A DNA stretch of 63,992 nucleotides from Burkholderiales bacterium (GCA_030681095.1 JAUXTZ010000043.1:1-63992), one strand, 5' to 3'. Shown: positions 343 to 58,274, counted from the first letter of the stretch. The notes: generated from the sequence alone by a model not told the origin. Numbers and translations: made by a program.

Positions 343-1305
343 TTAGTTTCCCCAGATTCTTCTAGCCCGCGACTCATCGACAAAGCGCTCACTCACATGG
401 GGATCGTGGGCTGCGCAGTAAACCCCTAAATTGCTGGGATTAGGTGACCCGCGTAGGTCCCGCAGGGCAACGAACATCTCATGATTTTGAGTTGTTGCAG
501 TACAACCGCCGACGTGCTCGCATTTCTGCCGAACTGTCAGCAGCCGGATCGTCCAAAACATGCGGGGAAGCTCGTGCAATGTCGTCCCTGAGAATACGAA
601 GCCCTGTGCAGCAGGCTTCGGATCCACCCCTGTGTCGTAAATTGATAGCCGAGCACCCTTATGGCTGTTGCACCATCCACAAGCCAAAGCAAAGTTGGAC
701 CCCGCTCCGCCCCCTCCAGCGACGGGAATGATGTGATCTACCTCGATTTGCAAGTCTCGTTCGATCAGTCCCCTCGGCCGAAAAAGGTCCACAATTTTTG
801 GAAGAACTAACGACACAGGAGGTTTGTTCGCCCCCAAAAAATTAGAAATTGCATCGCTCCTAAACGCGTAACCGCACATCCAACAGCGCGGCGGCGTCGC
901 GGCAGCGATAAGGTTCTGCTTTATTAAGCGAGTGGGTGCGGTACGTGCGGTTCCCCTCCGGCGGTGAACCTCCTGCATCAATACACGCGCCACAATTTTG
1001 GCAAATGCCTCCTTGTCATTGGCTGACTCGTTAGGAAAAAGTGAACCGGCACGCGAGATTGCCTCGACATAGATTGCGGCTTCGGAGGCCGACTTATCGA
1101 GCGTCCACCGCTGTGGGCTACTGAGTCCTGCCAGATACCACCGCAGCCACATGCTGGATGCGTCCGCCCGTAGCACCTGCTCGTTGACGGAGGTAACCGC
1201 ATCCGGCAGACGCAGGTTAGTGAGCCGTTGCAACTCGGGAAACTGCCACACCGCCTCAAAGTCTGGAGCTTGGTGAATGAACTGCGTCAGTGAAGCCAAA
1301 GACAT
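343..1305 (-). CDS. HNH endonuclease-domain protein (320 aa)
   Basis: HNH signature EVDHIIPV...ALACGWCNSHKG plus an upstream CWMCGY. The start lies 3 nt after the stop of the DGQHR gene, so the two form an operon. Confidence 0.8.
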   Translation of the reverse strand: MSLASLTQFIHQAPDFEAVWQFPELQRLTNLRLPDAVTSVNEQVLRADASSMWLRWYLAGLSSPQRWTLDKSASEAAIYVEAISRAGSLFPNESANDKEAFAKIVARVLMQEVHRRRGTARTAPTRLIKQNLIAAATPPRCWMCGYAFRSDAISNFLGANKPPVSLVLPKIVDLFRPRGLIERDLQIEVDHIIPVAGGGGAGSNFALACGWCNSHKGARLSIYDTGVDPKPAAQGFVFSGTTLHELPRMFWTIRLLTVRQKCEHVGGCTATTQNHEMFVALRDLRGSPNPSNLGVYCAAHDPHVSERFVDESRARRIWGN

Positions 1306-1308
1306 CGC

Positions 1309-3252: not shown

Positions 3253-4197
3253 CTACATAATCAAGATGTGCTGATGAATACGCTCCAGCATCGCTTCAAA
3301 GGTAGGCTGCCCGTTGTAGTAAAGGGCGGCCGTCCTCTTAAACTCCTCCTCAAATTGCTTTCGTTGCTCTTGGTCCTCTAGACGAAATGCCGCGTTGCGA
3401 GCGATCACCAGCTCGTCGCCTGACCTAAAGCGGACTTTCTTGCGCTCCTGGTAATCGTGTCGACCGCAGAAGACCTGCACCTCGTCGAGTTCCAGCAGGC
3501 AGTACACGTCGTAGTAGTGGCGCAGGAAATTTCCGGGGAAGGTCTTGGACTCTGCGAGTCGCCGATATTTGGTAGAGACGGTCTGCAGCTTCTCGACGAA
3601 GGTGTGGGTAGGCGCATAGCAAAAAACGTCCTGCGCGCGGTTATCCGCGATCTTGACACCCTTGCCTGCGGCAGTGTCATATGCCCAGGACGAGATCGTC
3701 ACTGGTCGGTTCGGTGCGGTGTCGTCAAATCCTAGCTCGAGCAAAATGCCGGTTTTTACGCCTTCCAGTGCCTTGTTCTTAGTGGGATAGCTTAAACGGA
3801 TGCCCGCGCTGCGCAACCGATCGTCATCGAACGCTGTATCACGCTCGCAGGACGTGATGCCGGGGATCTTGATCTCTTGAGTCAACCAGTCGTAAAAGGT
3901 CCGCCGCGATTCAACGTGCGCCGGTTTGTCCTGGTTGCGGCCGATTTTGACGTCCATGCCCTCTGGAGGCTCGATGCGGATGTCGATGTCCTCGGAAAAG
4001 CGGTGGATGATCCCGAAGCCTTTTGAGAGCGAGGTGCCGCCCTTTAGCTCGAACCGAAACCCCTGCGCCTGCAGTCCCCACAGGCAATGCATGATCCAGT
4101 AATCCTTCTCCACCAGGACCGGATCGATCTCGCGCTCGTCTGAAACTACGCCAATCAGCTCGCCGAAATCCCGACGCTCGTGCAGAAAATCATGCAT
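3253..4197 (-). CDS. abiEii: AbiEii/AbiGii-family nucleotidyltransferase toxin (type IV TA)
   Basis: GGTSLSKGFGIIHRFSEDIDIRI nucleotidyltransferase motif, N-terminal EKDYW. Overlaps the upstream antitoxin gene by 8 nt. Confidence 0.8.
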   Translation of the reverse strand: MHDFLHERRDFGELIGVVSDEREIDPVLVEKDYWIMHCLWGLQAQGFRFELKGGTSLSKGFGIIHRFSEDIDIRIEPPEGMDVKIGRNQDKPAHVESRRTFYDWLTQEIKIPGITSCERDTAFDDDRLRSAGIRLSYPTKNKALEGVKTGILLELGFDDTAPNRPVTISSWAYDTAAGKGVKIADNRAQDVFCYAPTHTFVEKLQTVSTKYRRLAESKTFPGNFLRHYYDVYCLLELDEVQVFCGRHDYQERKKVRFRSGDELVIARNAAFRLEDQEQRKQFEEEFKRTAALYYNGQPTFEAMLERIHQHILIM

Positions 4198-4801
4198 CGA
4201 GCCAACTCATGACGCGCTTCTTTGTGGCCATCGCACCGTAACTTTCAACAGCACGCTTGAGCCGCTGCTTGTCAAAGGCGCCCGCCCGCTCCTTCGCGCG
4301 GGCCAGAACACTGCCTTGGTCTTCCGCAAGCTCACTGAGATTGTTCAACGCGTCGACGAACAAAAACTCAGGAGTCAGCTTCTTGGGAAAGCGCTGCTTC
4401 ATGCGGAAGTCGAACTGCCGGTTGCCCAGTTTGAACACGCCATGCCGCTTGTGGTTGTAGACCACGGTCTGGTTGTACAGCTGAGTCGTGCCTAGCCCCG
4501 CCGAGTTATAGGCTGACGGCGAGAACATCAAAAAGTCCCTGTCGCGAAGAAAGGCGCCGACCAGTTGGGACTCGTCGGGAGGCAGTGCGCCAAAGGTCGA
4601 AGCTCGTGGAGCGTAGTAGAGCCCTTGGGCTAGCTTGGTGAGCTGCCCGTTGTCGACCAGTTCCCGCAGGTCGCGATCAACGGCCTTCGAGAAAGGGACC
4701 AAGTCCTCCCGTCGATACACCCTGCCGGCGCGCAGCGACCCCTTCAATCGCTGTTTAGCGGCTTGCAGCGGTGCTTTGAGCATAGAGTCGGCTGTGGTCA
4801 T
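4190..4801 (-). CDS. abiEi: AbiEi-family antitoxin / transcriptional regulator
   Basis: 203-aa ORF with an N-terminal winged-helix-like segment (LRELVDNGQLTKLAQGLYYAP) typical of AbiEi. Translationally coupled to abiEii. Confidence 0.7.
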   Translation of the reverse strand: MTTADSMLKAPLQAAKQRLKGSLRAGRVYRREDLVPFSKAVDRDLRELVDNGQLTKLAQGLYYAPRASTFGALPPDESQLVGAFLRDRDFLMFSPSAYNSAGLGTTQLYNQTVVYNHKRHGVFKLGNRQFDFRMKQRFPKKLTPEFLFVDALNNLSELAEDQGSVLARAKERAGAFDKQRLKRAVESYGAMATKKRVMSWLDA

Positions 4802-4934
4802 GCTTGGTTTTTCATTAACGTTTCATGCATTTTAACCCAACTTCTTCCTTCTGTGAGGCATCTCTCCTGGCATGTCGATCACCGGCGCCTGAATAACATT
4901 CCGAAATTATGGATTTGACAAACAGCATTCCATT

Positions 4935-7406
4935 TTGGCAGAATACAGGCATCTAATTGTTTTGGAGCCCTCCTTGGCCAGACTCAACGTACAAAGCGAG
5001 CGTGTGCAGCGCCTCATTGACGAGCGCGTCGTTCCGCTCTTCTTTGCGCACGGCAGCATTGGCGCCATGACAAAGGCGCTGAATGGGTCGCTCCAGGGCG
5101 CCGGAATCGTCGGTACGCTTCACCCCAACCGCCTCCACACCTTGCTGTCAAACGACCTGTCTCGCGGGGTGAACGAAGCGACGATTGAGCTGACCGAGCA
5201 GGCTGCGGTGCTGGCATTCGCGCAGGACCCCACCCTGCCCGACCGCGCCACGACAGCCATGGCCGCCCTGCAGCGCGAAGCCGCACGCCTGCATCTCTTC
5301 GCAGACGCGACGGGAACCGAGGCGGGCTCCCGGCTAGGACTCCCGCCTGCCGTCGCCATTCGGCTCATACCGCGTGCGGCAGCTGCCGCGCCAGGCCTGG
5401 CCATTGCCCTTCCCGACGAATTGGCAGACCAGCGTGCGCTGCCGCCGGACTGGGGCTACCAGGACACGGCGGTTACGCGCTGCCTGGAAGCGTTCGGACG
5501 ACGGCCCAACGGACGTATTGGCCTGATCCTTCCCACCGGCGCCGGCAAGACGCGCACGGCGCTACGCATCGTCCTGGCAATGCTGGACCGCGCCACGGAA
5601 CCCAAATCGCCTGTGTATTGGGTTACGCATCGCCGCAACTTGCGCGAACAGGCACACCGCGAACTGCAGAAACTGATTGCCGAGGGACACGAGCATCTGT
5701 CAGCGGAGCGGTTGATCGAGCTCGCGAACCGCATCAAGTTCGTCATGGTCGGCGATTTGTCGCCGCTGCTTGAGGGCGCAGCGATCAAGCCCACCCTGAT
5801 CGTAGTCGATGAAGCCCACCACGCCGCAGCGCCGTCCTACGGTCCAGTCTTCGCCAACCCGTGGGCTGCGCCCGTGCTTCTGTTGACGGCAACGCCCAAC
5901 CGCACCGATGCGCTGCCGATCGGCATCGACGAGATCGCCTTCACCATCACGTACCGTGAACTCGCCGAGCGACGCGCTGTCCTCACGCCCAAGTTTCTCG
6001 ACCTCCCGGTCGAAAACTTCGACTGGTCACCCGAAGCTATCGACGATCTTGCGGACTTCATCGTGGACCGCACAGCCGCCGAGTTCACCAAGGTGCTTGT
6101 GCTGGCCCCGCGCGTCGACCGCGTTGAGGAGTTTTATCGTGCACTGGTGGACCGGCTTCCGCTCGACCATCCTTTGGAGCAGGAGGACTTGGGCTTCGTC
6201 CACGGCACGGGGAACTCCCTGGGCATCGGCAACGAGGATTTCCTCGCGCGGTTCAGCAACAAACCGCGTGCGATCCTCATCTCCGCTCAGTTGTTGCTTG
6301 AGGGATTCGACGATCCGGCCATCAACACCGTCGTCCTGACCTATCCCTCCAGCTCGGTGATCCGACTGATGCAGGCGGCGGGTCGGTGCGTGCGCTATGC
6401 GCCGGATAAGCGCGCCGCCTACGTGGTGCAGGCCCGCAATGACAGCCTGGCCTACCACTTCGACCAACGCTGGCTCTACCAGGAGATCGACGATTTCCTG
6501 CGCCCCCGACTCAAGGACGTTGAATATGGCAGCCTCACCGAGCTGCGGTCCTCGGCGGCCGATATCCTGCGGGCCCACAACGTCGATCCCGCCGTGTCGG
6601 CGCGGCTTCTCACCCGCATCGACTCGATCGCGCCGGGCGAAACCTGCCGGCTCTTCCTCTACGGACTGCCCTACTTCGGCCCTGCGGAGAACTTCGAGGC
6701 GGACGCGAAGTGGAGCGGCATGCTCGAGTCCCCCGAAGTTTCGAACCTGCTTCGCACCCTCTTTAACGGTTTTTGCGCACTGGGCGCGGACCTGTCCGAC
6801 CCTTCAGACTACCTGCTGCGGGATGGAGCGGCTCACGGCCTTGCAAAGGACACGTCTCCAGGCAGCATGTGGGTGGCCATGACAGGCCTGCTAACGGCTG
6901 GCTACTTCGCCAAGCGCGAAGTGCATGGGCCGACTTCGATCGATTCTTCCGGCAGCCGTCCCTACCGAGCCAATGGTGCGACGACCTGGCTGAAGTACGT
7001 CACCTTCACTTATCGCCCGGCCGTGCCCGCAGCGCTGGCGGAGTTCCTCAGTGACTGCCACAACGCAGAGCGAATCGCGTCCCTGTACCTGGAACGCGTG
7101 ACCGAGCACGCGGCAGCGGTCAAGGTACCGCTTCCCCTCGGTGGCAGCGAGGCGTTCCTGCTGGATCCGGCCGCCAAGCAGGAGCTCGACGGCGCGACCT
7201 CCATTCTCCGCACAAAATTGGCGGACGCCAAACCTGAAGATCAATTCGGCGTACTGGCGGCTTTCATCGCCGGCGCCGACTACAAGGACCTCCCGATGCG
7301 CCTGCTGCACCGCACAGAGTTCCTCGTGAACGCAGACCGAGGCGAGCGTGTGCTCGTCCTGCAAGATTTCTTGAACCATGACCCGAAAGAGGTGAACCAT
7401 GCATGA
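4935..7406 (+). CDS. SF2 DEAH-box helicase (ResIII-like), 823 aa
   Basis: Motif I LILPTGAGKTRTAL, motif II VVDEAHHAA, motif III LLTATPNR, motif VI QAAGRCVR. About 170 aa at the N-terminus and about 300 aa at the C-terminus are unassigned. The start at 4935 is a TTG and is uncertain. Confidence 0.8.
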   Translation: MAEYRHLIVLEPSLARLNVQSERVQRLIDERVVPLFFAHGSIGAMTKALNGSLQGAGIVGTLHPNRLHTLLSNDLSRGVNEATIELTEQAAVLAFAQDPTLPDRATTAMAALQREAARLHLFADATGTEAGSRLGLPPAVAIRLIPRAAAAAPGLAIALPDELADQRALPPDWGYQDTAVTRCLEAFGRRPNGRIGLILPTGAGKTRTALRIVLAMLDRATEPKSPVYWVTHRRNLREQAHRELQKLIAEGHEHLSAERLIELANRIKFVMVGDLSPLLEGAAIKPTLIVVDEAHHAAAPSYGPVFANPWAAPVLLLTATPNRTDALPIGIDEIAFTITYRELAERRAVLTPKFLDLPVENFDWSPEAIDDLADFIVDRTAAEFTKVLVLAPRVDRVEEFYRALVDRLPLDHPLEQEDLGFVHGTGNSLGIGNEDFLARFSNKPRAILISAQLLLEGFDDPAINTVVLTYPSSSVIRLMQAAGRCVRYAPDKRAAYVVQARNDSLAYHFDQRWLYQEIDDFLRPRLKDVEYGSLTELRSSAADILRAHNVDPAVSARLLTRIDSIAPGETCRLFLYGLPYFGPAENFEADAKWSGMLESPEVSNLLRTLFNGFCALGADLSDPSDYLLRDGAAHGLAKDTSPGSMWVAMTGLLTAGYFAKREVHGPTSIDSSGSRPYRANGATTWLKYVTFTYRPAVPAALAEFLSDCHNAERIASLYLERVTEHAAAVKVPLPLGGSEAFLLDPAAKQELDGATSILRTKLADAKPEDQFGVLAAFIAGADYKDLPMRLLHRTEFLVNADRGERVLVLQDFLNHDPKEVNHA

Positions 7407-8667
7407 CATCAACCAGAAACCCATCAACGAGTTGCAAGACGCAAAGCTGGTCTCGTTCGACAAAATCTACCTCGATCCGAACAACCCGCGCATCGCTCCT
7501 GAGAATCCGCCCGGCTACAGCGATCCGGAGGCGCTGTTCGCGCCCAACCTCCAAGAGGACCTCGAGCGCCGCGTGCGCCAGGTCTACGACGTCGCCAATC
7601 TCGAAGACTCGATCGTTGCGCATGGCTGGGTTCCCATCGATTCGATCATCGTCTGGGAGCACCCTAAGAAGCCGGATCATTACGTGGTCGTAGAAGGCAA
7701 CACACGCACGGTGGCGCTGCGTTCATTGCGGAGCGAACGCCTGGAGCGCGAGCAGAAAAAGCTCGAGAAGCTGAAGAAGACGCCCTCGCGCTTTGCCGAG
7801 GAACTGAAGGTTCAAGAAGACACCGTCGCGCGGCTCGAGGCCATCGCCGCCAAGACAAGCATGCTGCGGGTCTTCCCCGTGGCAGCCAAGACTGTCGACG
7901 AGCTCCAGGCCATCTTGCCGCGGCTGCTGGGCGTGCGCCACATCAGCCATGCCCGTGAGTGGAAGCCCTATGCGACTAACCTGTATATCCTGTCCCTGTA
8001 TGAACGCCTGTTCCGTGACCGCCATGGCAGCAAGGGCGCTTTGCGACTGGAGGACGACTTGGTCATCCAAGTTGGAGAGCTTGTCTCGCTGGGCAGCACG
8101 AAGACCCGCCGCAACATCCAGGCCGCATCAGCTTTCAGCCACTTCAAGCGGGACTTCGAAGACCGTTTGCCGGAAGGTGAGTCGTTCACTGACGAAGACC
8201 ATTATTTCTTCGAGCTCATCTTGCAGAACTCCTATCCCAAAGAGCAGTTCAGCGTGACAAAGGACGCGCTGCGCCTGCCGCCAGAGTCGGAGGAAGTGCT
8301 CTTCCAGTGGGCTTTCGCCAAGCCGCGCAGCGGCAAGGAAGACGAGAACGAGAACATCTTCTACAAGGCCGAGAGCGTGCGATTGTGGAACCAGATGGCA
8401 ACGTACGACGGCAAGGCACGGACCAACTTCGCCAAGCAACTGGACGTCAATGCCCCGGAAGAGGCGCGTCCCATCCGCGTCATTGAAGCTGAGTTTCTGC
8501 AACACAAGACCCAACGTACGCCCATCGACGCGCTGAGCTCGCTACTGAACACGCTGCAGGATCTCAAGGTGGATACGCTGGTGTCGCAGCAGGAGCACCT
8601 GCGGCCAATCCTCGGCAAGATCTCGCAGCTGGTGACCACCTACGAGAAAATGATGAAGGTGGTCTAA
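7399..8667 (+). CDS. ParB N-terminal-domain (ParB/Srx fold) protein, 422 aa
   Basis: LDPNNPRI and YVVVEGNTRTVALRSL resemble ParB box I and the arginine-patch region. The ATG overlaps the helicase stop by 8 nt. Confidence 0.7.
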   Translation: MHDINQKPINELQDAKLVSFDKIYLDPNNPRIAPENPPGYSDPEALFAPNLQEDLERRVRQVYDVANLEDSIVAHGWVPIDSIIVWEHPKKPDHYVVVEGNTRTVALRSLRSERLEREQKKLEKLKKTPSRFAEELKVQEDTVARLEAIAAKTSMLRVFPVAAKTVDELQAILPRLLGVRHISHAREWKPYATNLYILSLYERLFRDRHGSKGALRLEDDLVIQVGELVSLGSTKTRRNIQAASAFSHFKRDFEDRLPEGESFTDEDHYFFELILQNSYPKEQFSVTKDALRLPPESEEVLFQWAFAKPRSGKEDENENIFYKAESVRLWNQMATYDGKARTNFAKQLDVNAPEEARPIRVIEAEFLQHKTQRTPIDALSSLLNTLQDLKVDTLVSQQEHLRPILGKISQLVTTYEKMMKVV

Positions 8668-8715
8668 AGTTAGCGGTAGGCAGAAGAAATCACAAAAACC
8701 AAATGGAGGTGGAAC

Positions 8716-9528
8716 ATGACGATTGTCGAAGCGATCAAACAGGTGATGCGCGAAGCTGGGCGGCCACTGACCGCCCGAGAGGCGTTCACGGCAATCGTGG
8801 CGAAATCGCTCTATGAGTTCCACGCGAAGGATCCACTGCATGTCGTTTCCATGCAGATCCGACGCCATTGCGCCGGCATCGACTTCCCAAGTGCTGCACC
8901 AACGAAGCACTTCCAGCAGCACGGGGACGACCGCTTCTCTCCACTGCCCGAGATCCTCAAGAGCAAGCGCACCACCAAACCGCGCCAGCGCCGGGTGGAT
9001 GCTACGCCGCCGCCCGAGTCGGCAGGTGGCAGCGCGCTGTCCTCCGTCGAAGACGAGTTATGGGCGCTTCATGCCAAATACTTGAAGCTCTTCGAGGAAC
9101 ACATGCTGCGGGAACTAAAGCTGCTCAGTCCGGCAGGGTTTGAAGCATTCTCACGCGACCTGCTCGACGCGTACGGTTTCAAGGATACGAAGGTAACCAC
9201 CATCTCCCGTGACGGCGGCATTGACGGTTACGGAAAGCTCAAAGTTGGCTTGGCTCACTTAAACGTCGCCTTCCAGTGCAAGCGCTGGACGAATGCCAAC
9301 ATCCAACGACCCGAGATCGACAAGTTCCGCGGCGCAAGCCAGGGCGCTTATGAGCAGGGGATCTTTTTCACAACGGCGTCGTTTTCCAAAGGTGCAATTG
9401 CCGTGACAACCCAACCGGGTGCGATTCCGGTGGTCATGATCGACGGGCCGCAAATCGTGAGTCTGATGGTGGAGAAGAAGTTCCGAGTGGAGTCCAACGT
9501 CATGGAGATTCCTGCCTTTGCGCTCTAA
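8716..9528 (+). CDS. HARE-HTH-like winged helix fused to an Mrr-type restriction endonuclease core, 270 aa
   Basis: N-terminus MTIVEAIKQVMREAGRPLTAREAF is HARE-HTH-like. C-terminus ISRDGGIDGYGK...VAFQCKRW is a PD-(D/E)xK Mrr_cat-like core. A GGAGG RBS lies upstream. Confidence 0.75.
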   Translation: MTIVEAIKQVMREAGRPLTAREAFTAIVAKSLYEFHAKDPLHVVSMQIRRHCAGIDFPSAAPTKHFQQHGDDRFSPLPEILKSKRTTKPRQRRVDATPPPESAGGSALSSVEDELWALHAKYLKLFEEHMLRELKLLSPAGFEAFSRDLLDAYGFKDTKVTTISRDGGIDGYGKLKVGLAHLNVAFQCKRWTNANIQRPEIDKFRGASQGAYEQGIFFTTASFSKGAIAVTTQPGAIPVVMIDGPQIVSLMVEKKFRVESNVMEIPAFAL

Positions 9529-9560
9529 GCTTTCCCGGCGAGCAGTTACTCGCTGAAAGC
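9529..9560. terminator. convergent-gene hairpin (possible bidirectional terminator)
   Basis: The whole 32-bp gap between the Mrr-like stop and the dndE stop folds as gctttc..cgag[cagtta]ctcg..gaaagc. There is no U-tract. Confidence 0.35.
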
Positions 9561-9941
9561 CTACGGACTGACAGCCTGGATGGATTTGGCCATCTCCACC
9601 AGCAGATCCTCCTCACGGCGGCTCACGAGGTAGGAAAGCCCTCGATGCACGTGTACGGTAAGGGCCTGGCGAATTGTGTCTTCCGTGACTCGCTTCCCCT
9701 CGGAAAGCAGGCGTACGGCCAGAAGGTTGTAGTACAGGGCGTCCTCGCCCCCCGTGAATGTTCGCCAGTCGATCTCAATGCCACCATTGAAAGAGAAAGT
9801 CTCGTTGGGGGCAACCGACGCATTGGCGAGCGACAAGCACAACGCGTGGCGGCAGATCGCGTTGTTGTGTTCCATGCCCGTACGCCGCTTCAGCGTGACT
9901 AGCTGGTTACGCGCGGCCGCGTTCAATTTGATGCGTTCCAT
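9561..9941 (-). CDS. dndE: DNA sulfur modification protein DndE
   Basis: 126 aa with a MERIKLNAAARNQLVTLKRRTG.. DndE-like N-terminus. Last gene of the dndBCDE operon, 3 nt after dndD. Confidence 0.8.
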   Translation of the reverse strand: MERIKLNAAARNQLVTLKRRTGMEHNNAICRHALCLSLANASVAPNETFSFNGGIEIDWRTFTGGEDALYYNLLAVRLLSEGKRVTEDTIRQALTVHVHRGLSYLVSRREEDLLVEMAKSIQAVSP

Positions 9942-9944
9942 TGA

Positions 9945-11924
9945 TCAGCCTTTGTGCGAGCCAGCGCTCAGGATAGACGTGTGACCTGTAGCGTCGTCGA
10001 AGTGAAGCGAGTATTCGGCGTTGGTGAAAGGCTTGAGCGCCTCATACGCCAGACCGTCAACCTCCTGATCGGTCGACAACACGACAACTTGGTGAGACAC
10101 CGTCGCGAAGAATCGCTTGATGAGCGCTGAGCGGTGCTGCTGGTCCAGTCGCGCCAGCGGTGTATCGACCACCACCGGGAAGCGTCCCTTCCTCTCCTTG
10201 ATCAGCGCGCTGAGCACGGATATGGCTAGCAGCTGCCGCTCGCCGGCAGAGAGACGATCCATCGGCAGTTCCTGGTTCTTCCCATCTACGATGGAAACGC
10301 GGTACGTTTCGGGATCGACAAGCACTTTTGCTACCAAGTTGCGCTTACGCATCAGGTTTCGAAACTCCGTGGTGATCATCTCTGACAACCATTGCGCCTT
10401 TGAGGCCAGCAGCCGCTCTTTGAAGACAAGGAGGGCTTTGCGGGCGCGTGCCGACGCGTCGAGGCTTTTGGACTCAAGCGACCGGTCGCGGAACTCTGTG
10501 CCCAAGCGCTCTTGCGCGGCATTCAATCGGATGCGCACGTGGCTCAGGTGACTTTGCGTCTCCTCGACTTTCTGAGTAAGTCCTGACAGGTGAGCTTCGG
10601 CGACAGACGCCACCTTGGAGCGATCCTGCAGCGACTTGAGAATGCCCCCAATCTGCTCTTCGGCAGGAATTTGCCCGATCAGCTGCTCGGCACGGTCAAG
10701 GTCGACTTGCGTCTGCTGCAGGCCATCAAGCTGACTGCGCAGGCGCGCCAGGCCTTCCTGGAGCCGTCGTTCCGCATCCCGCGGAGGAGCATCCTGCAGC
10801 GTCACTGCCGCCGATGTGCGCTTTCCGCCATATGCCCGCAAGTCCTCCGCCAGTGCTTGGCGCACGGCTTCCATAGCTGGCCGCGGCATGGCTTTGACCA
10901 ATGCGGACACCACACGCTCGTCACGCTTTTTGAACTCCTGCGCAAGTAGTTTGGAATGTCGTTCGTGTTGGTCGTCGTTCCACGTATCGCGATAACGTTG
11001 CCACAGGTTCGGCAACCACGCCAGCGGCAGCAAGGGATCGGACATAGCCTCGGCGAGACCGACCCGCGCGGCGACTGCATCCCGCTTTGTCGTAACTACT
11101 GAATTGCGGATCGTCGCCGCCTGTTCATACGCGGCCAGGCCCTTGCGTTGTGCGTCGGAAGTGAATTTGTCAAGAGCTGCCTGTGCTTGCTGTGCCCCGT
11201 TTCTAGCCGCGGCCTGTTCCTGAATAAGCCTTAGCAGCGTTTCCTCAAGCTCTTTGACCTGTACATCCCAAGCGGCGACGTTCGCACGTGCCGCCTCGAA
11301 CTCGGCGGAGGTGTTTTTGTTCTTGAGCGCTGCGCGCCGCTCCAATGCCTTCAGGTCATTGCCGAGTGCCTCGATCCCCCCAATTCCCAAAAACACCTCA
11401 GTGGCACGCTTTAGCAGCTCCGGCAAGCGTTCAGGATTGGCCAGAGCCTCGATTTTTTCACCGTCGAAAAGAAACAGCTGGACAAGCTCGGCCGGCAGAA
11501 TCGATCCAATGAACTCCTCCCACGTTTGGGAAAATTCGAGATCCTTGCTACCGCCCTCGAAGACAGTCAGCACTTCGGATAGTTCGTCGCCCTTACGAGT
11601 CCATTCCCGGCGCACAACCAGCTCGCGGCGTGATCCACCGATCTCCACTTTCACGCCAATCTCGACAACCGGGGTGCCAAGGGCGTCCTTGCGATGCAGC
11701 CCAAGCAGCATCTGCTCGTACTCTGAACGGCGCATCCCATTGATCGCCTTGTAACCGTAAAGGCCGATCTGAAGTGCCGTCAGGAGCGTGGTTTTACCGC
11801 TGCCGTTGAGTGCTTTGACAAGAATGACGGGACGGGCGCCTGATACGGCCAAATCAAGAGTTTGTCGCTCGCGAAAAGGACCAAAGTTCTCGACTGAGAT
11901 GTTCGCTATTGTTATTTTTGCCAT
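9945..11924 (-). CDS. dndD: DNA sulfur modification protein DndD (SMC-like ATPase)
   Basis: Walker A LNGSGKTTLL, long coiled-coil middle, C-terminal VVVDTPLARLDQQHR...VVVLSTDQEV typical of DndD. Confidence 0.85.
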   Translation of the reverse strand: MAKITIANISVENFGPFRERQTLDLAVSGARPVILVKALNGSGKTTLLTALQIGLYGYKAINGMRRSEYEQMLLGLHRKDALGTPVVEIGVKVEIGGSRRELVVRREWTRKGDELSEVLTVFEGGSKDLEFSQTWEEFIGSILPAELVQLFLFDGEKIEALANPERLPELLKRATEVFLGIGGIEALGNDLKALERRAALKNKNTSAEFEAARANVAAWDVQVKELEETLLRLIQEQAAARNGAQQAQAALDKFTSDAQRKGLAAYEQAATIRNSVVTTKRDAVAARVGLAEAMSDPLLPLAWLPNLWQRYRDTWNDDQHERHSKLLAQEFKKRDERVVSALVKAMPRPAMEAVRQALAEDLRAYGGKRTSAAVTLQDAPPRDAERRLQEGLARLRSQLDGLQQTQVDLDRAEQLIGQIPAEEQIGGILKSLQDRSKVASVAEAHLSGLTQKVEETQSHLSHVRIRLNAAQERLGTEFRDRSLESKSLDASARARKALLVFKERLLASKAQWLSEMITTEFRNLMRKRNLVAKVLVDPETYRVSIVDGKNQELPMDRLSAGERQLLAISVLSALIKERKGRFPVVVDTPLARLDQQHRSALIKRFFATVSHQVVVLSTDQEVDGLAYEALKPFTNAEYSLHFDDATGHTSILSAGSHKG

Positions 11925-11927
11925 GGG

Positions 11928-13382
11928 TCATGCAATCGATGCGGTCGGGTCCGACGCATCTCCTTCAGATTCTTTGGTTGTGATGCTGGAGCGGGCAAAT
12001 TCCAGTGCCTCCTCCTCGTTGCGGAAGGCGTAGTGCTGCAACACGCCTTCGAGACGGTCGAGGTGCTTCGAGCGCTTGTGTGACTCCATCGACTGGAACT
12101 GCACAGCGAGCAAGCTGCGGGTCAGCTTGTACAACTCGTTGGCGGCCGCCGGATCGATCTCTTTGGCCACGCCTTCCAGCAAGCTCAGGTCAGTGGCATC
12201 CAGGGGGACCTGCTCGAGTTCCTTGCCCGGGTAAGGTTCATCGAAAACCTCCGAGTAGATTCTCGGCACATGGTCCTCAATCTCGCCCTTTTCTTCGACC
12301 CATAGCCGTCGAATCTCGTCGAGTTCCTCGATCGAAATCAACTCTATCAGTTGTGTGCCCTGCTTCTGGTCGGCATTGCGGACCACTCGTTGTGTGAGCA
12401 GCAGCTCGCGAAGCAGCTGAATGCGATGCGCTTGGGTATATGGCCCGTGCACCAATTCGTCACGGAACATGGTCAGCCGCCCATTCATCCGGCGGAAGTC
12501 CCGCACCGACCGGTCTTCGATGGCGAGGTGCTTGTTGCGGAAGTCCAAGATCGGCTGCATCCATTGCTTCTGCTCGTCGTTCTGGATCATGGCCTGCATG
12601 GATTTGTCCTGCGTCACCATCGTGCAAACGTAACAGCCAAAGCGGCTATCACCGCAGCTGGGCGTCGACGTATCGACAACAATGGGGCACTCCGCGTCGG
12701 GCGTTGCCCCGCGATAAATGCTGAAGAGTTCCTGGTTGTCGATGCCCCAAGGATTCGGCTGCGTGATTAGATACTCCCAGACGTCGTCGCTGGTCCAACT
12801 CTCGATCGGAGGGTAGACCCACACGCGAGACAGCCTGGGGTCCTTGTTCTTGCTCAGGCGAGCGCGCGTACTGCCCTGGTACTGATCCATGACTTTATCG
12901 CGCGCCTGGCTCTCGCCACGCCGCTGGCCCAGAACCAGGATGGCTTCACCATTGTTCTCGGACAGTTCCTGAATGAATTTGGTCGAAGCGCTGATTTTGA
13001 GCCTATCAGTGCACCATCTGAACTTCGGTCGCGGCGCGGGATAGCCCTTGCCAATGAGGTTTACCCAAAAGCGGTTCTCAACGGACGGTGTGAGCCGGTG
13101 GGCAGTGATGTTCAGCCCCTGCTGCTGCGCGGATATGCCGATGCGAAGCAACGACGTATGCACCCAGGCGGCAATCACCGGATTCTCGACAAGGGTGTCG
13201 GTGCTAATCACATGGATTGGTTTAACGCGTTTCTCGGGCGGCAGTGACGCGACTGCTGTCCACAACAGTTGCAACGACGCCGTCGAATCCTTCCCCCCGC
13301 TGTACCCGACGATCCATGGGATCGAGTCTGATTGATACAGCTCGCGGATCTCCTCGACGATTTTTTCAAATGGAATGCTCAT
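11928..13382 (-). CDS. dndC: DNA phosphorothioation protein DndC (PAPS-reductase-like)
   Basis: PP-loop GYSGGKDSTA and Cys cluster CGDSRFGCYVC. Start refined to MSIPFEK (ATG at 13382), which overlaps the dndB stop as ATGA. The longer track ORF to 13790 is rejected. Confidence 0.9.
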   Translation of the reverse strand: MSIPFEKIVEEIRELYQSDSIPWIVGYSGGKDSTASLQLLWTAVASLPPEKRVKPIHVISTDTLVENPVIAAWVHTSLLRIGISAQQQGLNITAHRLTPSVENRFWVNLIGKGYPAPRPKFRWCTDRLKISASTKFIQELSENNGEAILVLGQRRGESQARDKVMDQYQGSTRARLSKNKDPRLSRVWVYPPIESWTSDDVWEYLITQPNPWGIDNQELFSIYRGATPDAECPIVVDTSTPSCGDSRFGCYVCTMVTQDKSMQAMIQNDEQKQWMQPILDFRNKHLAIEDRSVRDFRRMNGRLTMFRDELVHGPYTQAHRIQLLRELLLTQRVVRNADQKQGTQLIELISIEELDEIRRLWVEEKGEIEDHVPRIYSEVFDEPYPGKELEQVPLDATDLSLLEGVAKEIDPAAANELYKLTRSLLAVQFQSMESHKRSKHLDRLEGVLQHYAFRNEEEALEFARSSITTKESEGDASDPTASIA

Positions 13383-14503
13383 GCTCGCTTTCTTCCTGCG
13401 GCACGGCGCGGGCTCCGCGAAGCCTCCCAAGCCATTTCCGCAGCACTTTCTTCCGGTGAGAGTTGGATGCCCAAGACCCGCTTGATCTCGTTGCAGGTGA
13501 GCGTGATGTTTTGGCCTGATTTGGCCATGGCCCCCCCGACCATTGCGCGGCCTTCCCAGGTAGGGGCGTTCTTCCTCGACCAATCGACACCGCGCAGCCG
13601 TTTCAACCGCTTTGCTCGCTCCGCTGCTGGCAGCTGATAGAGGGCGCGGCCAGCGCGTCCGAGTGCCTGCAGGACGATGGCGTGAGAATGAATGAAGTCG
13701 CGCCGCAGCTCGCCCGACGTCATTTTGGACTGCCGCACATAAGTCCATTCGGGAATGTGCTCGCCCACTGCCTCCCAGAATTCCGCGCATTTTTTGCTTG
13801 CGGAATGGAAGTCCTCAAGCTCTTTGTCGACCAGCAACTCCGTTGTCGCGAAGTTCACCGCACTCAGCGTGAACAGCTTGCGTGACCGCGGTGACAACGA
13901 CGAGCGCTCAGTTTCGATCAGGTTCTTGAAGACCGACGAAGTGAGGCTCAGATGCCGCGCCAGGCTGGCAGCCGCGCTCCGATGGTCATAGAGCACGCCC
14001 AAGGACGCGGACGGCTTCACCGCGTACCGGTTCAAGTCCGCAAACATCTGCTGGCAATGCTCGAGTCCACGATCCAGAAAGAATACGACCGCAATGGTCT
14101 CTTCGCCCAGATCCGGGGCCGTTTCCAGGGCTTGCACGATGGCCGCCCTCCGGTGCTGCCCATCGTTGACAATGAGCTTGGCGTCCATCGATACCGTCAA
14201 TGCGCCCATGCGGAAGTTTGCCGGTCCATCGGCGCCGACCGGGTCGAATTGGATCGTACCATCGATGGAAACGGTAATTGCTGAAAAGATGTAGCTGTTC
14301 TTGTTCTCGACGATGTAACGCGCGATGTCGGGAACCCTGGCCTTGTTCAGGGTGCGCTGCGCGCGCAGCTCCGGCACCAGTTCTTCTTCATCGAAAATAA
14401 ACAGGCGCGTAAGCAGACGCAGCGGACACATCGAGACGTAGTACTCACGCCCCGCCTGTACCCCCCGAATCGCCGGGAAGACGTACGAAAAATTCTCAGC
14501 CAT
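13379..14503 (-). CDS. dndB: DNA sulfur modification protein DndB (DGQHR domain)
   Basis: FPAIRGVQAGREYYV N-terminus and VNDGQHRRAAI. The start at 14503 gives about 374 aa, the typical DndB size. The alternative ATG at 14635 would abut the divergent gene. Confidence 0.85.
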   Translation of the reverse strand: MAENFSYVFPAIRGVQAGREYYVSMCPLRLLTRLFIFDEEELVPELRAQRTLNKARVPDIARYIVENKNSYIFSAITVSIDGTIQFDPVGADGPANFRMGALTVSMDAKLIVNDGQHRRAAIVQALETAPDLGEETIAVVFFLDRGLEHCQQMFADLNRYAVKPSASLGVLYDHRSAAASLARHLSLTSSVFKNLIETERSSLSPRSRKLFTLSAVNFATTELLVDKELEDFHSASKKCAEFWEAVGEHIPEWTYVRQSKMTSGELRRDFIHSHAIVLQALGRAGRALYQLPAAERAKRLKRLRGVDWSRKNAPTWEGRAMVGGAMAKSGQNITLTCNEIKRVLGIQLSPEESAAEMAWEASRSPRRAAGRKRA

Positions 14504-14515
14504 TAGGGAGTTAAT

Positions 14516-14551
14516 GTACCATGTTTGTATGTCAATACACAAACGTACGTC
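14516..14551. promoter_or_regulatory. imperfect palindrome in the dndB divergent control region (candidate operator)
   Basis: GTAC(cat)GTTTGTAT-gtcaat-ACACAAAC-GTAC. ACGTACG occurs at 14543-14549 and again at 14481-14487. Confidence 0.3.
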
Positions 14552-14633
14552 TTTTCCCAGGTCGCTCCGTAATGCATCAAATGTTGGCAATTCGCGTCGG
14601 CTCGGGCCGCTCGCAGGAAGCTGAGAGATATCC

Positions 14634-15920
14634 ATGCATGAAGCGCTTGTCGTGTTCTCACGCGCCGGCCTGTTTCAGACCTCTATTCTCGCCAAAGACG
14701 TACGCAGCCGAGAGCATGCGCGCAAGCTCTGGCCGTTGGTAGCGCCGGACGCGCACGGACAGCTGCTGACCTGGGTTAGCCCCTCCTTTCAGAACGGACG
14801 CTGCCGGCGCCGTTCGCACTTTCGCTGTTTGCCGACATCAGCCTCGTATGACCTGAAGGCGCACTTCGAGACCGAAGAGCGCGAGCGATTACAAGCCACC
14901 GGCGAAAGTGCCGAGCATATGCAAGCAAAGCAGTTGATTGCCCAGGAGCTCCAGAGCCGCTTGTCCGCCGGCTTAGGACTGCCCTGGTCCTTCAACGACC
15001 CCGATGCAACCGACTACCACCTCGAAGGAAACCTCCTCCTCGGCGCTGACCGAATTGCCATGGAGCACACACTCAGGACCCCGTTTGGCAGCAGCTTCCG
15101 TTTAGACATCGCGGTTCTCGGGCCACCGATTCGCAAGAAACCCATGGTGCTCGGGGGCATCGAGATTGAACTGGGTCACGCCTTCGACGGTCGCAAGGCG
15201 TTGATCGGCAAATCCCTCGGGTTTCCTTTGATCTCCGTCGACATTTCGGACATGAGCCTAGGGGACATCACTACCGATTGGGCGCGCAATGCTCTTAGCG
15301 CAACGACGCGAAGCGATGAACAGGGTCGCAGGCGGACCTACTACTATCTTCACGATCTTCTCTACCCGGAGTTCACTCAACTGCCGGCCTTCTTGGACAG
15401 CGAGCAGCGACATCAGTACCTGATCTTCGCCGACGACACGACGCTCTCTAAACTTGTGCGGTGGTTTGAAGCGCTCAGCGTCAACCTCGGGTATAGCAAA
15501 GGCGCAGTTGCCATTGCTATTGTGAATTCAAGTAGCGAGCAGTCGCAAAAAATGCTTCAGTACGCTGGCGACATCGTGGGCTCGGGCTGGCAGCAGTTCA
15601 ACGACCGACAGTGCTTGCGCATCACTGTCCCACGCCCGAAGGGCCCGGCAGATCTCCAGGCGCATCGCCTGCACATGATGCTGGCATACATTCTTCTCGA
15701 TCATGCGGATGCCTTGGTAGGCTACAAGTACCGCAAAGGGATCCAGAACGACCATCCCGAAGAGAATCTCTGGGTGACGCGCCGCTGGGATTCGCAGCAG
15801 GGGGTCGCCACGACGCATCGCGTGTTGCCCAAGCGGTTGGCCGAGCCGGTGAATCGTCTAGTTCAGTTCGTCCGCGAGCTGCAAGCGGGCTCCCCGCATG
15901 CGCCGGCACAGATACGCTAG
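14634..15920 (+). CDS. hypothetical protein, possible CoiA-like PD-(D/E)xK nuclease (428 aa)
   Basis: ESAEHMQAKQLI ... FRLDIAVL ... GGIEIELGH resembles the CoiA-type nuclease signature (ES..H..AK / D / E.E). Divergent from dndB. Start uncertain. Confidence 0.5.
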   Translation: MHEALVVFSRAGLFQTSILAKDVRSREHARKLWPLVAPDAHGQLLTWVSPSFQNGRCRRRSHFRCLPTSASYDLKAHFETEERERLQATGESAEHMQAKQLIAQELQSRLSAGLGLPWSFNDPDATDYHLEGNLLLGADRIAMEHTLRTPFGSSFRLDIAVLGPPIRKKPMVLGGIEIELGHAFDGRKALIGKSLGFPLISVDISDMSLGDITTDWARNALSATTRSDEQGRRRTYYYLHDLLYPEFTQLPAFLDSEQRHQYLIFADDTTLSKLVRWFEALSVNLGYSKGAVAIAIVNSSSEQSQKMLQYAGDIVGSGWQQFNDRQCLRITVPRPKGPADLQAHRLHMMLAYILLDHADALVGYKYRKGIQNDHPEENLWVTRRWDSQQGVATTHRVLPKRLAEPVNRLVQFVRELQAGSPHAPAQIR

Positions 15921-15976
15921 AGGTAAGCCTACGTCACGAGGGCGAAAGCATCAACACCGTCCTGCGTTGAAAGATT

Positions 15977-58267: not shown

Positions 58268-58274
58268 GGTCACG

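What the first reader, a model, noticed from the sequence alone, without database searches (positions are those of the whole stretch)
4935..9528. Helicase / ParB-fold / HARE-HTH-Mrr operon converging on a restriction-less dnd operon: candidate new PT-linked restriction system
Three co-directional genes form an operon. The first two overlap by 8 nt (7399-7406), and the third follows after 48 nt with its own GGAGG. They encode an 823-aa SF2 DEAH helicase with about 170 N-terminal and about 300 C-terminal residues I cannot assign, a 422-aa ParB/Srx-fold protein (LDPNNPR, VVEGNTR), and a winged-helix (HARE-HTH-like) domain fused to an Mrr-type PD-(D/E)xK core (GGIDGYG...FQCKRW). The operon stops 32 bp from dndE in convergent orientation. 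The window contains no dndFGH, sspE or other recognisable phosphorothioate (PT)-dependent restriction partner for dndBCDE. Mrr and HARE-HTH modules are generally modification-reading. A ParB-fold NTPase domain (DUF262) is the PT sensor in SspE. A helicase is the motor in DndFGH. This trio therefore carries the same functional parts in a different architecture. I do not recognise it as a named defence system.
Basis: partly seen in the sequence, partly recalled or inferred. Interest (0 to 1): 0.85.

Follow-up and report, generated by a model that had tools for sequence, protein, structure and literature searches.

The report
Helicase–ParB pair tied to DNA phosphorothioation
A helicase gene and a ParB-like gene sit next to the DNA sulphur-modification (dnd) genes in almost every genome where the pair occurs. 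They are therefore a strong, apparently undescribed candidate for the missing restriction partner of dnd clusters that lack dndFGH, whereas the third gene (an Mrr-type nuclease) is an optional companion of dnd loci that has already been reported.

Summary
The 8-nt overlap, the 48-nt gap with GGAGG and the 32-bp convergent gap to dndE are all correct. The domain calls also hold: SF2 DEAH helicase, ParB fold, HARE-HTH plus Mrr.

The functional unit is the helicase–ParB pair, not the trio.
- Among 25 informative species-level loci carrying a ParB homologue, 24 have the helicase adjacent and 23 have dndBCDE within 10 kb. This holds across four phyla and several gene orders.
- A sister family (a shorter helicase plus 2–3 ParB paralogues) is also next to dnd.
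- No model of DndFGH, SspE, SspFGH, Menshen or Azaca matches.
- No paper I could search describes the pair.

The Mrr gene is present in only about 9 of 25 loci. Its position is filled elsewhere by HNH, GIY-YIG, other PD-(D/E)xK-like or DGQHR genes, or is empty. Close Mrr homologues occur next to dnd without the pair, and also alone. A HARE-HTH–REase next to dnd was already reported (Rakesh et al., NAR 2024).

My best reading (confidence about 0.5) is a PT-coupled restriction module: a ParB/KorB-like nucleotide switch, an SF2 translocase and an exchangeable nuclease. Every activity in that model is inferred. I rate it a new variant of a known kind, interest about 0.7.

The parts
4915..4944 (+). 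Promoter-like site (TTGACA, 18-nt spacer, TG-CAGAAT) upstream of the helicase gene
   Evidence: 10 of 12 consensus positions, with an extended -10 TG. This is a consensus match only. It overlaps the 4935 TTG and so favours the 4974 start.
4974..7406 (+). SF2 DEAH helicase/translocase, 810 aa from TTG 4974 (the longest ORF starts at 4935). It has an N-terminal helical, HTH-like domain (about aa 1-135), an SF2 core (about aa 160-490, with PTGAGKT, DEAH and QAAGRCVR) and a family-specific C-terminal domain (about aa 495-800).
   Evidence: Pfam ResIII, DEAD and Helicase_C. AF2 model pLDDT 76.7; best Foldseek hits are RadD (E 1.8e-15), LlaBIII, HsdR of EcoR124I, XPB and SauUSI. Motifs are invariant in 20 homologues. 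The N- and C-terminal domains have no Pfam or PDB sequence hit. The C-terminal domain is shared with the sister-family helicase (tblastn reaches aa 760).
7399..8667 (+). ParB/KorB/Noc-like protein, 422 aa. The N-terminal ParB fold carries Box I-like LDPNNPR and Box II-like VVEGNTR, with a roughly 50-aa helical hairpin (aa 101-152) inserted after Box II. A conserved GVRHxxHAxxW segment and an all-helical C-terminal half follow.
   Evidence: No Pfam or NCBIfam hit. PADLOC matches only the N-terminal ~120 aa (PD-Lambda-5_A, PDC-M38A). AF2 pLDDT 83.8. Foldseek: KorB 8qa9, ParB 6t1f/7bm8 and Noc 7ol9, probability 0.92-1.0 over 247-292 columns. Conserved columns. There is an 8-nt overlap with the helicase gene.
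8716..9528 (+). HARE-HTH (aa 1-53) joined by a variable basic linker to an Mrr-type PD-(D/E)xK nuclease (aa 137-251; DGGIDG...AFQCKR). It is an optional, exchangeable companion and not part of the conserved core.
   Evidence: Pfam Mrr_cat 4.9e-22 and HARE-HTH 8e-7. PADLOC PDC-S02 and mREase_IV. Catalytic motif invariant in 10 homologues. Present in about 9 of 25 related loci. Found without the pair, or alone, elsewhere.
9561..9941 (-). dndE, convergent with the Mrr gene across a 32-bp gap
   Evidence: Pfam DndE 5.5e-27. The gap folds into a 12-bp hairpin, but this is no better than shuffled sequence (z -0.71).
9945..11924 (-). dndD (canonical DndD-clade ABC ATPase; it contains no cysteine, so it is not the CxC/PbeC clade)
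   Evidence: PADLOC DndD 1.4e-136; the best-scoring model carries the label PbeC. Zero Cys residues.
11928..13790 (-). dndC (PAPS-reductase-like). The longest ORF is shown; homology begins at about aa 139, so the true start is probably near 13400.
   Evidence: PADLOC DndC 1.3e-163, matching aa 139-606; Pfam PAPS_reduct.
13379..14635 (-). dndB (DGQHR/ParB-superfamily regulator)
   Evidence: Pfam DndB 1.5e-128.

Best explanation
**What it is.** Genes 1 and 2 form a conserved two-gene module that works with the adjacent dndBCDE phosphorothioation genes. It is most likely the restriction (non-self discrimination) arm of a PT-based defence system in clusters that lack dndFGH.

**Proposed mechanism (all steps inferred).**
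1. The ParB/KorB/Noc-like protein binds DNA as a nucleotide-controlled switch or clamp and reads whether the DNA carries the host's PT marks.
2. The RadD/HsdR-like SF2 ATPase, which carries its own N-terminal HTH-like domain and a family-specific C-terminal domain, translocates along the DNA.
3. A nuclease encoded in the variable position after ParB cuts DNA that is judged foreign. Here that nuclease is HARE-HTH–Mrr. Elsewhere it is an HNH, a GIY-YIG or another PD-(D/E)xK-like protein, or possibly the nearby DGQHR+HNH pair.

**Shown.** Gene order and likely translational coupling, the domain folds and motifs, the near-obligate genomic linkage of the pair to dndBCDE, and the absence of any match to named systems.

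**Inferred.** Nucleotide binding, PT sensing, translocation, recruitment of a nuclease, and whether PT protects DNA or activates the system.
For: **Linkage.**
- Of 26 species-representative loci with a ParB homologue, 25 are informative. The helicase is adjacent in 24 and dndBCDE lies within 10 kb in 23.
- The hosts are beta-, alpha- and gammaproteobacteria, Acidobacteriota, Myxococcota and Bacteroidota.
- Gene order varies: convergent, tandem with dnd upstream, or tandem with dnd downstream.
- Further loci agree: pTiAF3.44 and metagenome contigs.
- Taking 6.3% as a generous genome-level frequency of dnd/ssp (PMC12914056 abstract), 23 or more of 25 by chance has P = 6e-26.

**Sister family.** A related family (hhalign probability 99%) shows the same theme, with a 620-638-aa ResIII helicase plus 2-3 ParB_N-like paralogues beside dndBCDE(A). 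Its helicase shares the C-terminal domain.

**No competing restriction partner.** No locus contains an ORF over 1,100 aa, so no DndH-sized gene lies near these dnd clusters.

**Protein features.**
- The helicase fold is close to restriction motors LlaBIII, HsdR and SauUSI as well as RadD. PADLOC hits are to mREase_IV, REase_I, Cas3 and PbeA helicase cores.
- The ParB fold has intact Box I- and Box II-like motifs. ParB-superfamily domains are the PT sensors in SspE and DndI (PMC11662687).

**Effector position.** The gene immediately 3' of ParB is polymorphic and usually a nuclease: Mrr, HNH_2, GIY-YIG, an HNH+DGQHR pair, or a putative PD-(D/E)xK protein. In L009, where dnd lies upstream, that gene (a putative PD-(D/E)xK protein) follows ParB rather than dndE.

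**Co-inheritance.** Identity to the window of ParB and helicase co-varies (Spearman 0.89), and both co-vary with DndB/C/D (0.64-0.84). This is consistent with co-inheritance but is confounded by species phylogeny.
Against: - There are no experimental data of any kind.
- The conserved core has no recognisable nuclease domain, and some loci (L001, L010, L033) have no nuclease gene directly after ParB.
- The best structural match of the helicase is the repair helicase RadD, not a restriction enzyme.
- The ParB Box III catalytic glutamate of classical ParB appears to be replaced by GVRH (the comparison is from memory of ParB motifs).
- Two loci lack dnd within 10 kb. L024 has the pair. L013 has ParB only and sits next to integrases.
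- All instances are on mobile islands, so part of the linkage could reflect co-transfer.
- The Mrr nuclease clearly also functions outside this context.
Confidence: 0.5

Rival explanations
1. The helicase–ParB pair is an accessory of the modification side rather than a restriction arm. It might load or displace the DndCDE scanning complex, tune PT frequency alongside DndB, or repair nicks and stalled forks caused by Dnd activity or PT oxidation.
For: - The top structural match is the repair helicase RadD.
- The conserved core has no nuclease domain, and some loci have no nuclease after ParB.
- DndB, a known regulator of PT modification, is itself a ParB-superfamily protein (PMC10853773).
- The linkage to dndBCDE is as tight as that of a core component.
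Against: - Most dnd clusters in nature work without this pair; canonical systems do not need it (established knowledge; PMC10853773).
- Every locus with the pair also keeps DndB.
- hhalign finds no relation between this protein and DndB.
- The polymorphic nuclease position directly downstream and the defence-island setting are typical of conflict systems.
Confidence: 0.2
2. The HARE-HTH–Mrr enzyme, or the DGQHR+HNH pair at 343-3036, is the real PT-linked restriction component and acts alone. The helicase–ParB pair is then a separate defence system that merely shares the same mobile island.
For: - Rakesh et al. 2024 proposed HARE-HTH–REase as an alternative restriction component of Dnd loci.
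- Mrr homologues lie beside dnd without the pair in Burkholderia and Chromobacterium.
- DGQHR+HNH pairs recur in these loci.
- DndI and SspE show that a ParB-superfamily domain plus an HNH domain is enough.
Against: - Island hitch-hiking does not explain 23 of 25 loci, across four phyla and several gene orders, having dnd next to the pair, nor the same link in the sister family.
- Mrr is absent from most pair-containing loci and also occurs alone.
- No single nuclease type is shared by all loci.
Confidence: 0.15
3. The pair serves the biology of the conjugative element that carries it, for example entry exclusion, partitioning or protection of transferred DNA. It is near dnd only because both are common ICE or plasmid cargo.
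For: - The window is ICE-like: relaxase, T4CP, VirB4 and a 705-aa ParB_N protein.
- Other instances sit by relaxases or T4CP genes, or on a Ti plasmid.
- ParB-like proteins are common on mobile elements (PMC12704722).
Against: - Adjacency is specifically to dndBCDE, within a few hundred bp to about 9 kb, and not to transfer genes.
- Only 2 of 72,556 plasmids carry a homologue, and both are the same Ti-type plasmid. H1 has dnd adjacent; H2's neighbourhood was not inspected.
Confidence: 0.07

Closest known systems
DndFGH (PT-dependent restriction partner of DndBCDE)
   Same: It is encoded beside dndBCDE. [quoted passage not shown]
   Different: - There is no sequence relationship (no PADLOC, NCBIfam or Pfam hit).
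- The motor here is an active SF2 helicase, not a HerA/FtsK ATPase.
- There is no DndF kinase-like or DndG protein.
- The nuclease is a separate, exchangeable gene rather than a domain of a roughly 1,700-aa DndH.
DndI / SspE (DUF262 ParB-superfamily NTPase fused to a DUF1524 HNH nickase)
   Same: A ParB-superfamily domain is paired with a nuclease next to PT modification genes. In those proteins the ParB-like domain senses PT and its NTPase activity switches nuclease or DNA binding.
   Different: - The window protein has no GmrSD_N/DUF262 or DUF1524 hit.
- Its fold is closest to classical ParB, KorB and Noc.
- It has no fused nuclease.
- It is always partnered with a helicase.
PbeABCD (CxC ABC-ATPase system; PbeA is an HKD nuclease fused to an SF2 helicase)
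   Same: It is a dnd-linked module that contains an SF2 helicase. PADLOC PbeA models give weak hits.
   Different: - The hits cover only generic helicase motifs (aa 433-498, 36.8 bits).
- There is no HKD/PLD domain, no second ABC ATPase–DndE pair and no small disordered protein.
- The only ABC ATPase in the cluster is a cysteine-free canonical DndD.
ParB / KorB / Noc CTP-dependent DNA clamps
   Same: They are the best structural matches over the N-terminal nucleotide-binding domain plus the following helical DNA-binding region. The window protein has Box I-like LDPNNPR and Box II-like EGNTR motifs.
   Different: - There is no detectable sequence similarity to any solved ParB.
- A roughly 50-aa helical hairpin is inserted after Box II.
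- The Box III region differs.
- The C-terminal half is unrelated.
- The partner is an SF2 helicase, not ParA or KorA.
HARE-HTH + REase nucleases of Dnd neighbourhoods (Rakesh, Aravind & Krishnan 2024) / Mrr-type type IV enzymes / PADLOC PDC-S02
   Same: Gene 3 has exactly this architecture and position, immediately beside dndE.
   Different: Nothing substantial differs. This part of the finding is already described computationally. Its substrate preference is still unknown.
Type I / type ISP restriction motors (HsdR, LlaBIII), SauUSI and RadD
   Same: The SF2 core fold is shared. SauUSI and the type ISP enzymes couple such a motor to a nuclease for restriction.
   Different: Those enzymes carry the nuclease in the same polypeptide. 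Here no nuclease domain is detectable in the helicase.

Membership tests
DndFGH | Homologues of DndF, DndG and the roughly 1,700-aa DndH (HerA/FtsK ATPase plus REase) beside dndBCDE | tested here: not met
   None of the 20 window proteins scanned with PADLOC hit a DndF, DndG or DndH model. There is no NCBIfam dnd_assoc hit. No ORF over 1,100 aa occurs in any of the 26 related loci.
SspE / DndI | DUF262 (GmrSD_N, DGQQR motif) fused to a DUF1524/GmrSD_C HNH domain | tested here: not met
   Pfam finds neither GmrSD_N nor GmrSD_C in genes 1-3. PADLOC gives no SspE hit. The motif is EGNTR, the fold matches ParB/KorB/Noc, and there is no fused nuclease.
PbeABCD | PbeA (HKD/PLD nuclease plus SF2 helicase), PbeC (CxC-clade ABC ATPase) and PbeD (a second DndE-like protein) | tested here: not met
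   The helicase matches PbeA models only at helicase motifs (36.8 bits) and matches TIGR04095 at 32 bits against a cutoff of 600. There is no PLDc hit. DndD has no cysteine. Only one ABC ATPase–DndE pair is present.
Menshen (NsnABC) and Azaca | NsnA DUF262, NsnB ABC ATPase and NsnC inPIN-effector (PMC12065111); ZacABC profiles | tested here: not met
   No PADLOC Nsn or Zac model hit at E<=0.01. The motor here is SF2, not an ABC ATPase.
SF2 helicase/translocase | Walker A (motif I), DEAH (motif II), motif VI arginines and two RecA-like domains | tested here: met
   PTGAGKT, DEAHH and QAAGRCVR are invariant in 20 homologues. Pfam ResIII, DEAD and Helicase_C. Fold match to RadD, E 1.8e-15.
ParB/Srx superfamily, classical ParB_N type | ParB N-domain fold with a Box I (PNPxQPR-like) and a Box II (GxxR) motif | tested here: met
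   Foldseek to KorB, ParB and Noc, probability 0.92-1.0. LDPNNPR and EGNTR are conserved. Sister-family members hit Pfam ParB_N. Assigning these motifs to Box I and Box II rests on my knowledge of ParB.
ParB/KorB/Noc CTP-dependent sliding clamps | CTP (or other NTP) binding and hydrolysis, NTP-driven N-domain dimerisation, site-specific loading through the HTH domain, and a C-terminal dimerisation domain | not testable with these tools
   Only the fold and motifs were assessed. The Box III region differs (GVRHxxHAxxW) and the C-terminal half has no match.
Mrr-type (type IV-like) PD-(D/E)xK restriction endonuclease | Mrr_cat domain with an intact D...(Q/E)xK catalytic motif | tested here: met
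   Pfam Mrr_cat E 4.9e-22. PADLOC mREase_IV 2.5e-18. D166, D170 and Q187-x-K189 are invariant.
Mrr-type (type IV-like) restriction endonuclease | Cleavage depends on a DNA modification | not testable with these tools
   This would need enzyme assays on PT-modified, methylated and unmodified DNA.
Dnd-neighbourhood HARE-HTH+REase nucleases (Rakesh et al. 2024) | HARE-HTH fused to a REase-fold domain and encoded immediately beside the Dnd modification genes | tested here: met
   HARE-HTH 29.8 bits (gathering threshold 25.9) plus Mrr_cat. The gene ends 32 bp from dndE. Described.

The most novel reading that the evidence does not exclude
The helicase–ParB pair, together with its sister family that has several ParB paralogues, is a previously unrecognised and widespread class of PT-reading restriction module. 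In this reading a ParB/KorB-type nucleotide-gated DNA clamp senses the phosphorothioate status of DNA, an SF2 translocase acts on that signal, and the cutting enzyme is a swappable cassette (Mrr, HNH, GIY-YIG or a DGQHR–HNH pair). It would be the missing restriction arm for a substantial share of 'orphan' dnd clusters, and the first defence role for a classical ParB-type clamp.
Probability: 0.35. Interest if true: 0.85.

Novelty: new variant of a known kind. Interest (0 to 1): 0.7.

Why it matters
Most dnd clusters lack dndFGH, and what restricts foreign DNA in those hosts is an open question. Rakesh et al. 2024 found DndFGH in only 806 of the 3,416 taxa whose Dnd neighbourhood encodes at least one endonuclease.

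A two-gene module that is almost never found away from dndBCDE gives that question a concrete, clonable candidate. It would also extend the role of classical ParB-type nucleotide switches, so far known from chromosome and plasmid partitioning and from transcriptional silencing, into self/non-self discrimination.

The exchangeable nuclease position suggests a modular sensor–motor–effector design, comparable to the polymorphic effectors of Menshen. The Mrr part of the finding adds an example to an association already published.

Tried and rejected
- **Named systems.** PADLOC, Pfam, NCBIfam and PHROGs scans of all three proteins found only generic helicase, ParB-N and Mrr domain hits. The PD-Lambda-5_A hits cover only the ParB N-domain. 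That system is described as a compacted RM+Abi system with a methyltransferase, so I rejected it as a relative.
- **Nuclease in the helicase.** I looked for one in the C-terminal 315 aa and the N-terminal 135 aa using Pfam at E<=10 and a profile search of PDB sequences. Nothing was found. The full-length Foldseek search was dominated by the helicase core, so the C-terminal fold remains unassigned.
- **ParB-like protein as a DndB paralogue.** hhalign shows no relation.
- **DndD as a PbeC/CxC ATPase.** The best PADLOC model is labelled PbeC, but the protein has no cysteine, so I take this as a labelling artefact.
- **Terminator between Mrr and dndE.** A hairpin exists but folds no better than shuffled sequence.
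- **Plasmid search.** A megablast of 4000-16000 against plasmids found nothing.
- **Literature.** Searches, with reading, found no description of a dnd-linked helicase–ParB pair. Subscription-only papers were not searchable.
- **Failed look-up.** The look-up of P0093 found no gene with exactly that product on record, and P0257 sits on a 1.4-kb contig with no context.

Full report

Yes. The three co-directional ORFs are at 4935-7406, 7399-8667 and 8716-9528.
- Genes 1 and 2 overlap in ATGCATGA.
- Gene 3 follows after 48 nt, with GGAGG 5 nt before its ATG.
- Its stop is 32 bp from the stop of the convergent dndE.
- dndE, dndD, dndC and dndB follow on the minus strand.

One correction concerns the helicase start.
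- Database homologues are about 810 aa and align from residue 11-14.
- A GGAG lies 6 nt before TTG 4974.
- A TTGACA-18-CAGAAT promoter-like site at 4915-4944 covers the 4935 codon.
- The gene therefore most likely starts at 4974.

**2. What the proteins are**

*Gene 1* is an SF2 ATPase.
- ResIII, DEAD and Helicase_C cover aa 175-490 only.
- PTGAGKT, DEAHH and QAAGRCVR are invariant.
- The AF2 model (pLDDT 76.7) is closest to RadD (E 1.8e-15). The type ISP enzyme LlaBIII, HsdR of EcoR124I, XPB and SauUSI follow.
- The conserved N-terminal ~135 aa are helical. The motif HPNRLHxLLSxDxSRGxNEAT looks like an XRE-type HTH to me, but no tool confirmed this.
- The conserved C-terminal ~315 aa have no Pfam or PDB sequence match.

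*Gene 2* has no Pfam or NCBIfam hit.
- Its AF2 model (pLDDT 83.8) matches C-terminally truncated KorB, ParB and Noc over 247-292 columns, with probability 0.92-1.0. That covers the ParB N-domain plus the following helical DNA-binding region.
- LDPNNPR and VVEGNTR are near-invariant. From my knowledge of ParB, they correspond to Box I and Box II.
- A roughly 50-aa helical hairpin is inserted after Box II.
- hhalign finds no relation to DndB.

*Gene 3* is HARE-HTH plus Mrr_cat, with an intact D...QxK motif.

**3. What is conserved with what**

A scan of one genome per GTDB species with a profile of gene 2 returned 26 loci. I searched them by tblastn with the window's proteins.
- The helicase is adjacent to ParB in 24. 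The exceptions are L013 (ParB only, beside integrases) and L023 (a 1.3-kb contig).
- dndBCDE lies within 10 kb in 23. L024, in Hymenobacter, has the pair but no dnd within reach.
- The hosts span beta-, alpha- and gammaproteobacteria, Acidobacteriota, Myxococcota and Bacteroidota.
- Gene order varies. The pair is convergent with dndE, or dndBCDE lies upstream in tandem (L009, L016, L021, L022), or dndA-dndBCDE lies downstream (L010-L012).

Additional instances agree.
- The Ti plasmid pTiAF3.44 of Agrobacterium larrymoorei carries the pair. RefSeq annotates the two genes only as 'DEAD/DEAH box helicase family protein' and 'hypothetical protein'.
- Metagenome contigs L034-L037 show the same pattern.

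Even with a generous 6.3% genome-level frequency of PT genes (abstract of PMC12914056), 23 or more of 25 has P = 6e-26. None of the loci has an ORF above 1,100 aa, so no DndH-like gene is nearby.

An exhaustive profile search found a compact family: 74 clusters at E<1e-30. It also found a sister family of 370-410-aa proteins (hhalign probability 99%). In the sister family, a 620-638-aa ResIII helicase is followed by two or three ParB_N-like paralogues, again directly beside dndBCDE(A). That helicase shares the C-terminal domain of the window helicase. The link between a helicase–ParB module and dnd is therefore older and broader than the window's own family.

**4. The third gene is not part of the conserved unit**

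Mrr is present in about 9 of 25 loci. It sits either directly after ParB or, in L005 and L019, after an inserted HNH+DGQHR pair.

In other loci the gene after ParB is one of the following:
- an HNH_2 protein (L025);
- a GIY-YIG protein (L014);
- a GHKL ATPase (L003, after Mrr);
- a 660-aa DGQHR protein (L002);
- a 479-aa protein with an FVECKRQ motif, which I read as PD-(D/E)xK (L009).

In L001, L010 and L033 there is no such gene.

The Mrr family is much larger than the ParB family (1,391 hits). Sampled relatives at 53-62% identity have these contexts:
- Burkholderia: beside a Pbe-like module, a GmrSD protein and dndED.
- Chromobacterium: beside a DGQHR-like gene and dndDCB.
- Geothrix and a Massilia plasmid: alone.

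None of these has the pair nearby.

Rakesh, Aravind & Krishnan (NAR 2024) already reported REase domains fused to HARE-HTH immediately beside Dnd genes and proposed them as alternative restriction components. That paper, its supplement, the DndI paper, the ParB-fold survey, the Menshen analysis and the dnd-evolution paper do not mention a helicase–ParB pair.

**5. Mechanism**

The best-supported reading is a PT-coupled restriction module. Its parts would be a ParB/KorB-like nucleotide switch that binds DNA and reads PT status, an SF2 translocase, and an exchangeable nuclease.

The supports are:
- the near-obligate linkage to dnd;
- the absence of dndFGH near these clusters;
- the similarity of the helicase core to restriction motors;
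- the precedent that ParB-superfamily domains sense PT in SspE and DndI;
- the polymorphic nuclease position, which follows ParB rather than dndE where the two can be told apart (L009).

The weaknesses are:
- there is no nuclease in the conserved core;
- RadD is the best structural match of the helicase;
- the Box III region of the ParB-like protein differs from classical ParB;
- there are no experiments.

I therefore keep three rivals open: a role on the modification or repair side (0.2), an independent role for Mrr or DGQHR–HNH as the true restriction arm (0.15), and a function in mobile-element biology (0.07).

**6. Comparison with known systems and novelty**

The module fails the membership tests for DndFGH, SspE/DndI, PbeABCD, Menshen and Azaca. 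It works most like DndFGH or the type ISP enzymes (motor plus reader plus nuclease) and like DndI/SspE (a ParB-superfamily reader), but with different parts.
- The Mrr gene belongs to a class already described.
- The helicase–ParB pair appears undescribed as a dnd partner in the literature I could search.

I rate it a new variant of a known kind, interest 0.7.

**7. Context**

The region is low-GC cargo (0.55-0.62, against about 0.65 in flanking DNA) of a conjugative element with a relaxase, a T4CP, a VirB4 and a ParB_N protein. It sits in a defence island that also holds AbiEi/AbiEii, an AbiJ-like protein and a DGQHR+HNH pair.

Noticed in passing
window 343-3036 (- strand): 1309-3036 (575 aa) and 343-1305 (320 aa): This is a two-gene pair: a DGQHR-domain (DndB/DpdB-like ParB-superfamily) protein followed by an HNH endonuclease. 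Homologues of both genes lie beside dnd and helicase–ParB in L005, L015, L021 and on pTiAF3.44 (L033). Other DGQHR+HNH or DGQHR+unknown pairs occupy L001, L002, L004, L005, L007, L019 and L034. The pair looks like a split version of the DndI/SspE design and is a second candidate PT-linked nuclease module in this window.
   Followed up: partly
window 3253-4801 (- strand): An AbiEi (203 aa, PADLOC 1.8e-84) and AbiEii (314 aa, 1.5e-68) toxin-antitoxin/abortive-infection pair lies directly upstream of the helicase and divergent from it. The same pair is in the same position in L007 and L019.
   Followed up: partly
window 15977-16915 (- strand): A 312-aa protein with AbiJ_NTD4 (Pfam 1e-10) that matches the PADLOC candidate PDC-S32 over its full length (2.1e-46). 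It is another defence-island gene, just beyond dndB.
   Followed up: no
window 14634-15920 (+ strand): A 428-aa ORF divergent from dndB occupies the position where other loci (L010, L033, L034) carry dndA. It has no Pfam, PADLOC or NCBIfam hit and no homologue in any of the 26 related loci. I saw no cysteine desulfurase gene in the cluster.
   Followed up: partly
window 21949-24066, 32800-34866, 54193-56193, 58074-60713: These are genes of a conjugative element: a 705-aa ParB_N protein, a DUF3363 relaxase, a TraG/VirD4-type coupling protein and a VirB4/TrbE ATPase. With the GC drop to 0.55-0.62 over 1-18 kb, they indicate that the dnd island is cargo of an ICE. No tRNA gene is present in the window.
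   Followed up: partly
window 9945-11924 (dndD): The best PADLOC model for this DndD is labelled PbeC (977 bits, against 455 for the best DndD model). The protein contains no cysteine, so it cannot be a CxC-clade (PbeC) ATPase. The model label is misleading.
   Followed up: yes
window 11928-13790 and 13379-14635: The longest dndC ORF (620 aa) overlaps dndB by 412 nt. DndC homology starts at about aa 139, so the overlap is a longest-ORF artefact and the true start is probably near 13400.
   Followed up: partly
L028 5774-11215; L029 3577-8942; L030 6966-12331: In the sister architecture, a 620-638-aa ResIII helicase is followed by two or three paralogous ParB_N-like genes next to dndBCDE(A). Different nucleases are nearby (PLDc_2 in L029/L030, a NERD–UvrD-like protein in L028), and in a separate JGI contig carrying P0335 (no DNA held) a ScoMcrA-type SBD-HNH gene lies four genes away.
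   Followed up: partly
L039/L040 9001-18831 (Burkholderia), L041/L042 (Chromobacterium): In these genomes the dnd island, with its Mrr homologue, is inserted immediately after dnaA-dnaN-gyrB at the chromosome origin region.
   Followed up: no
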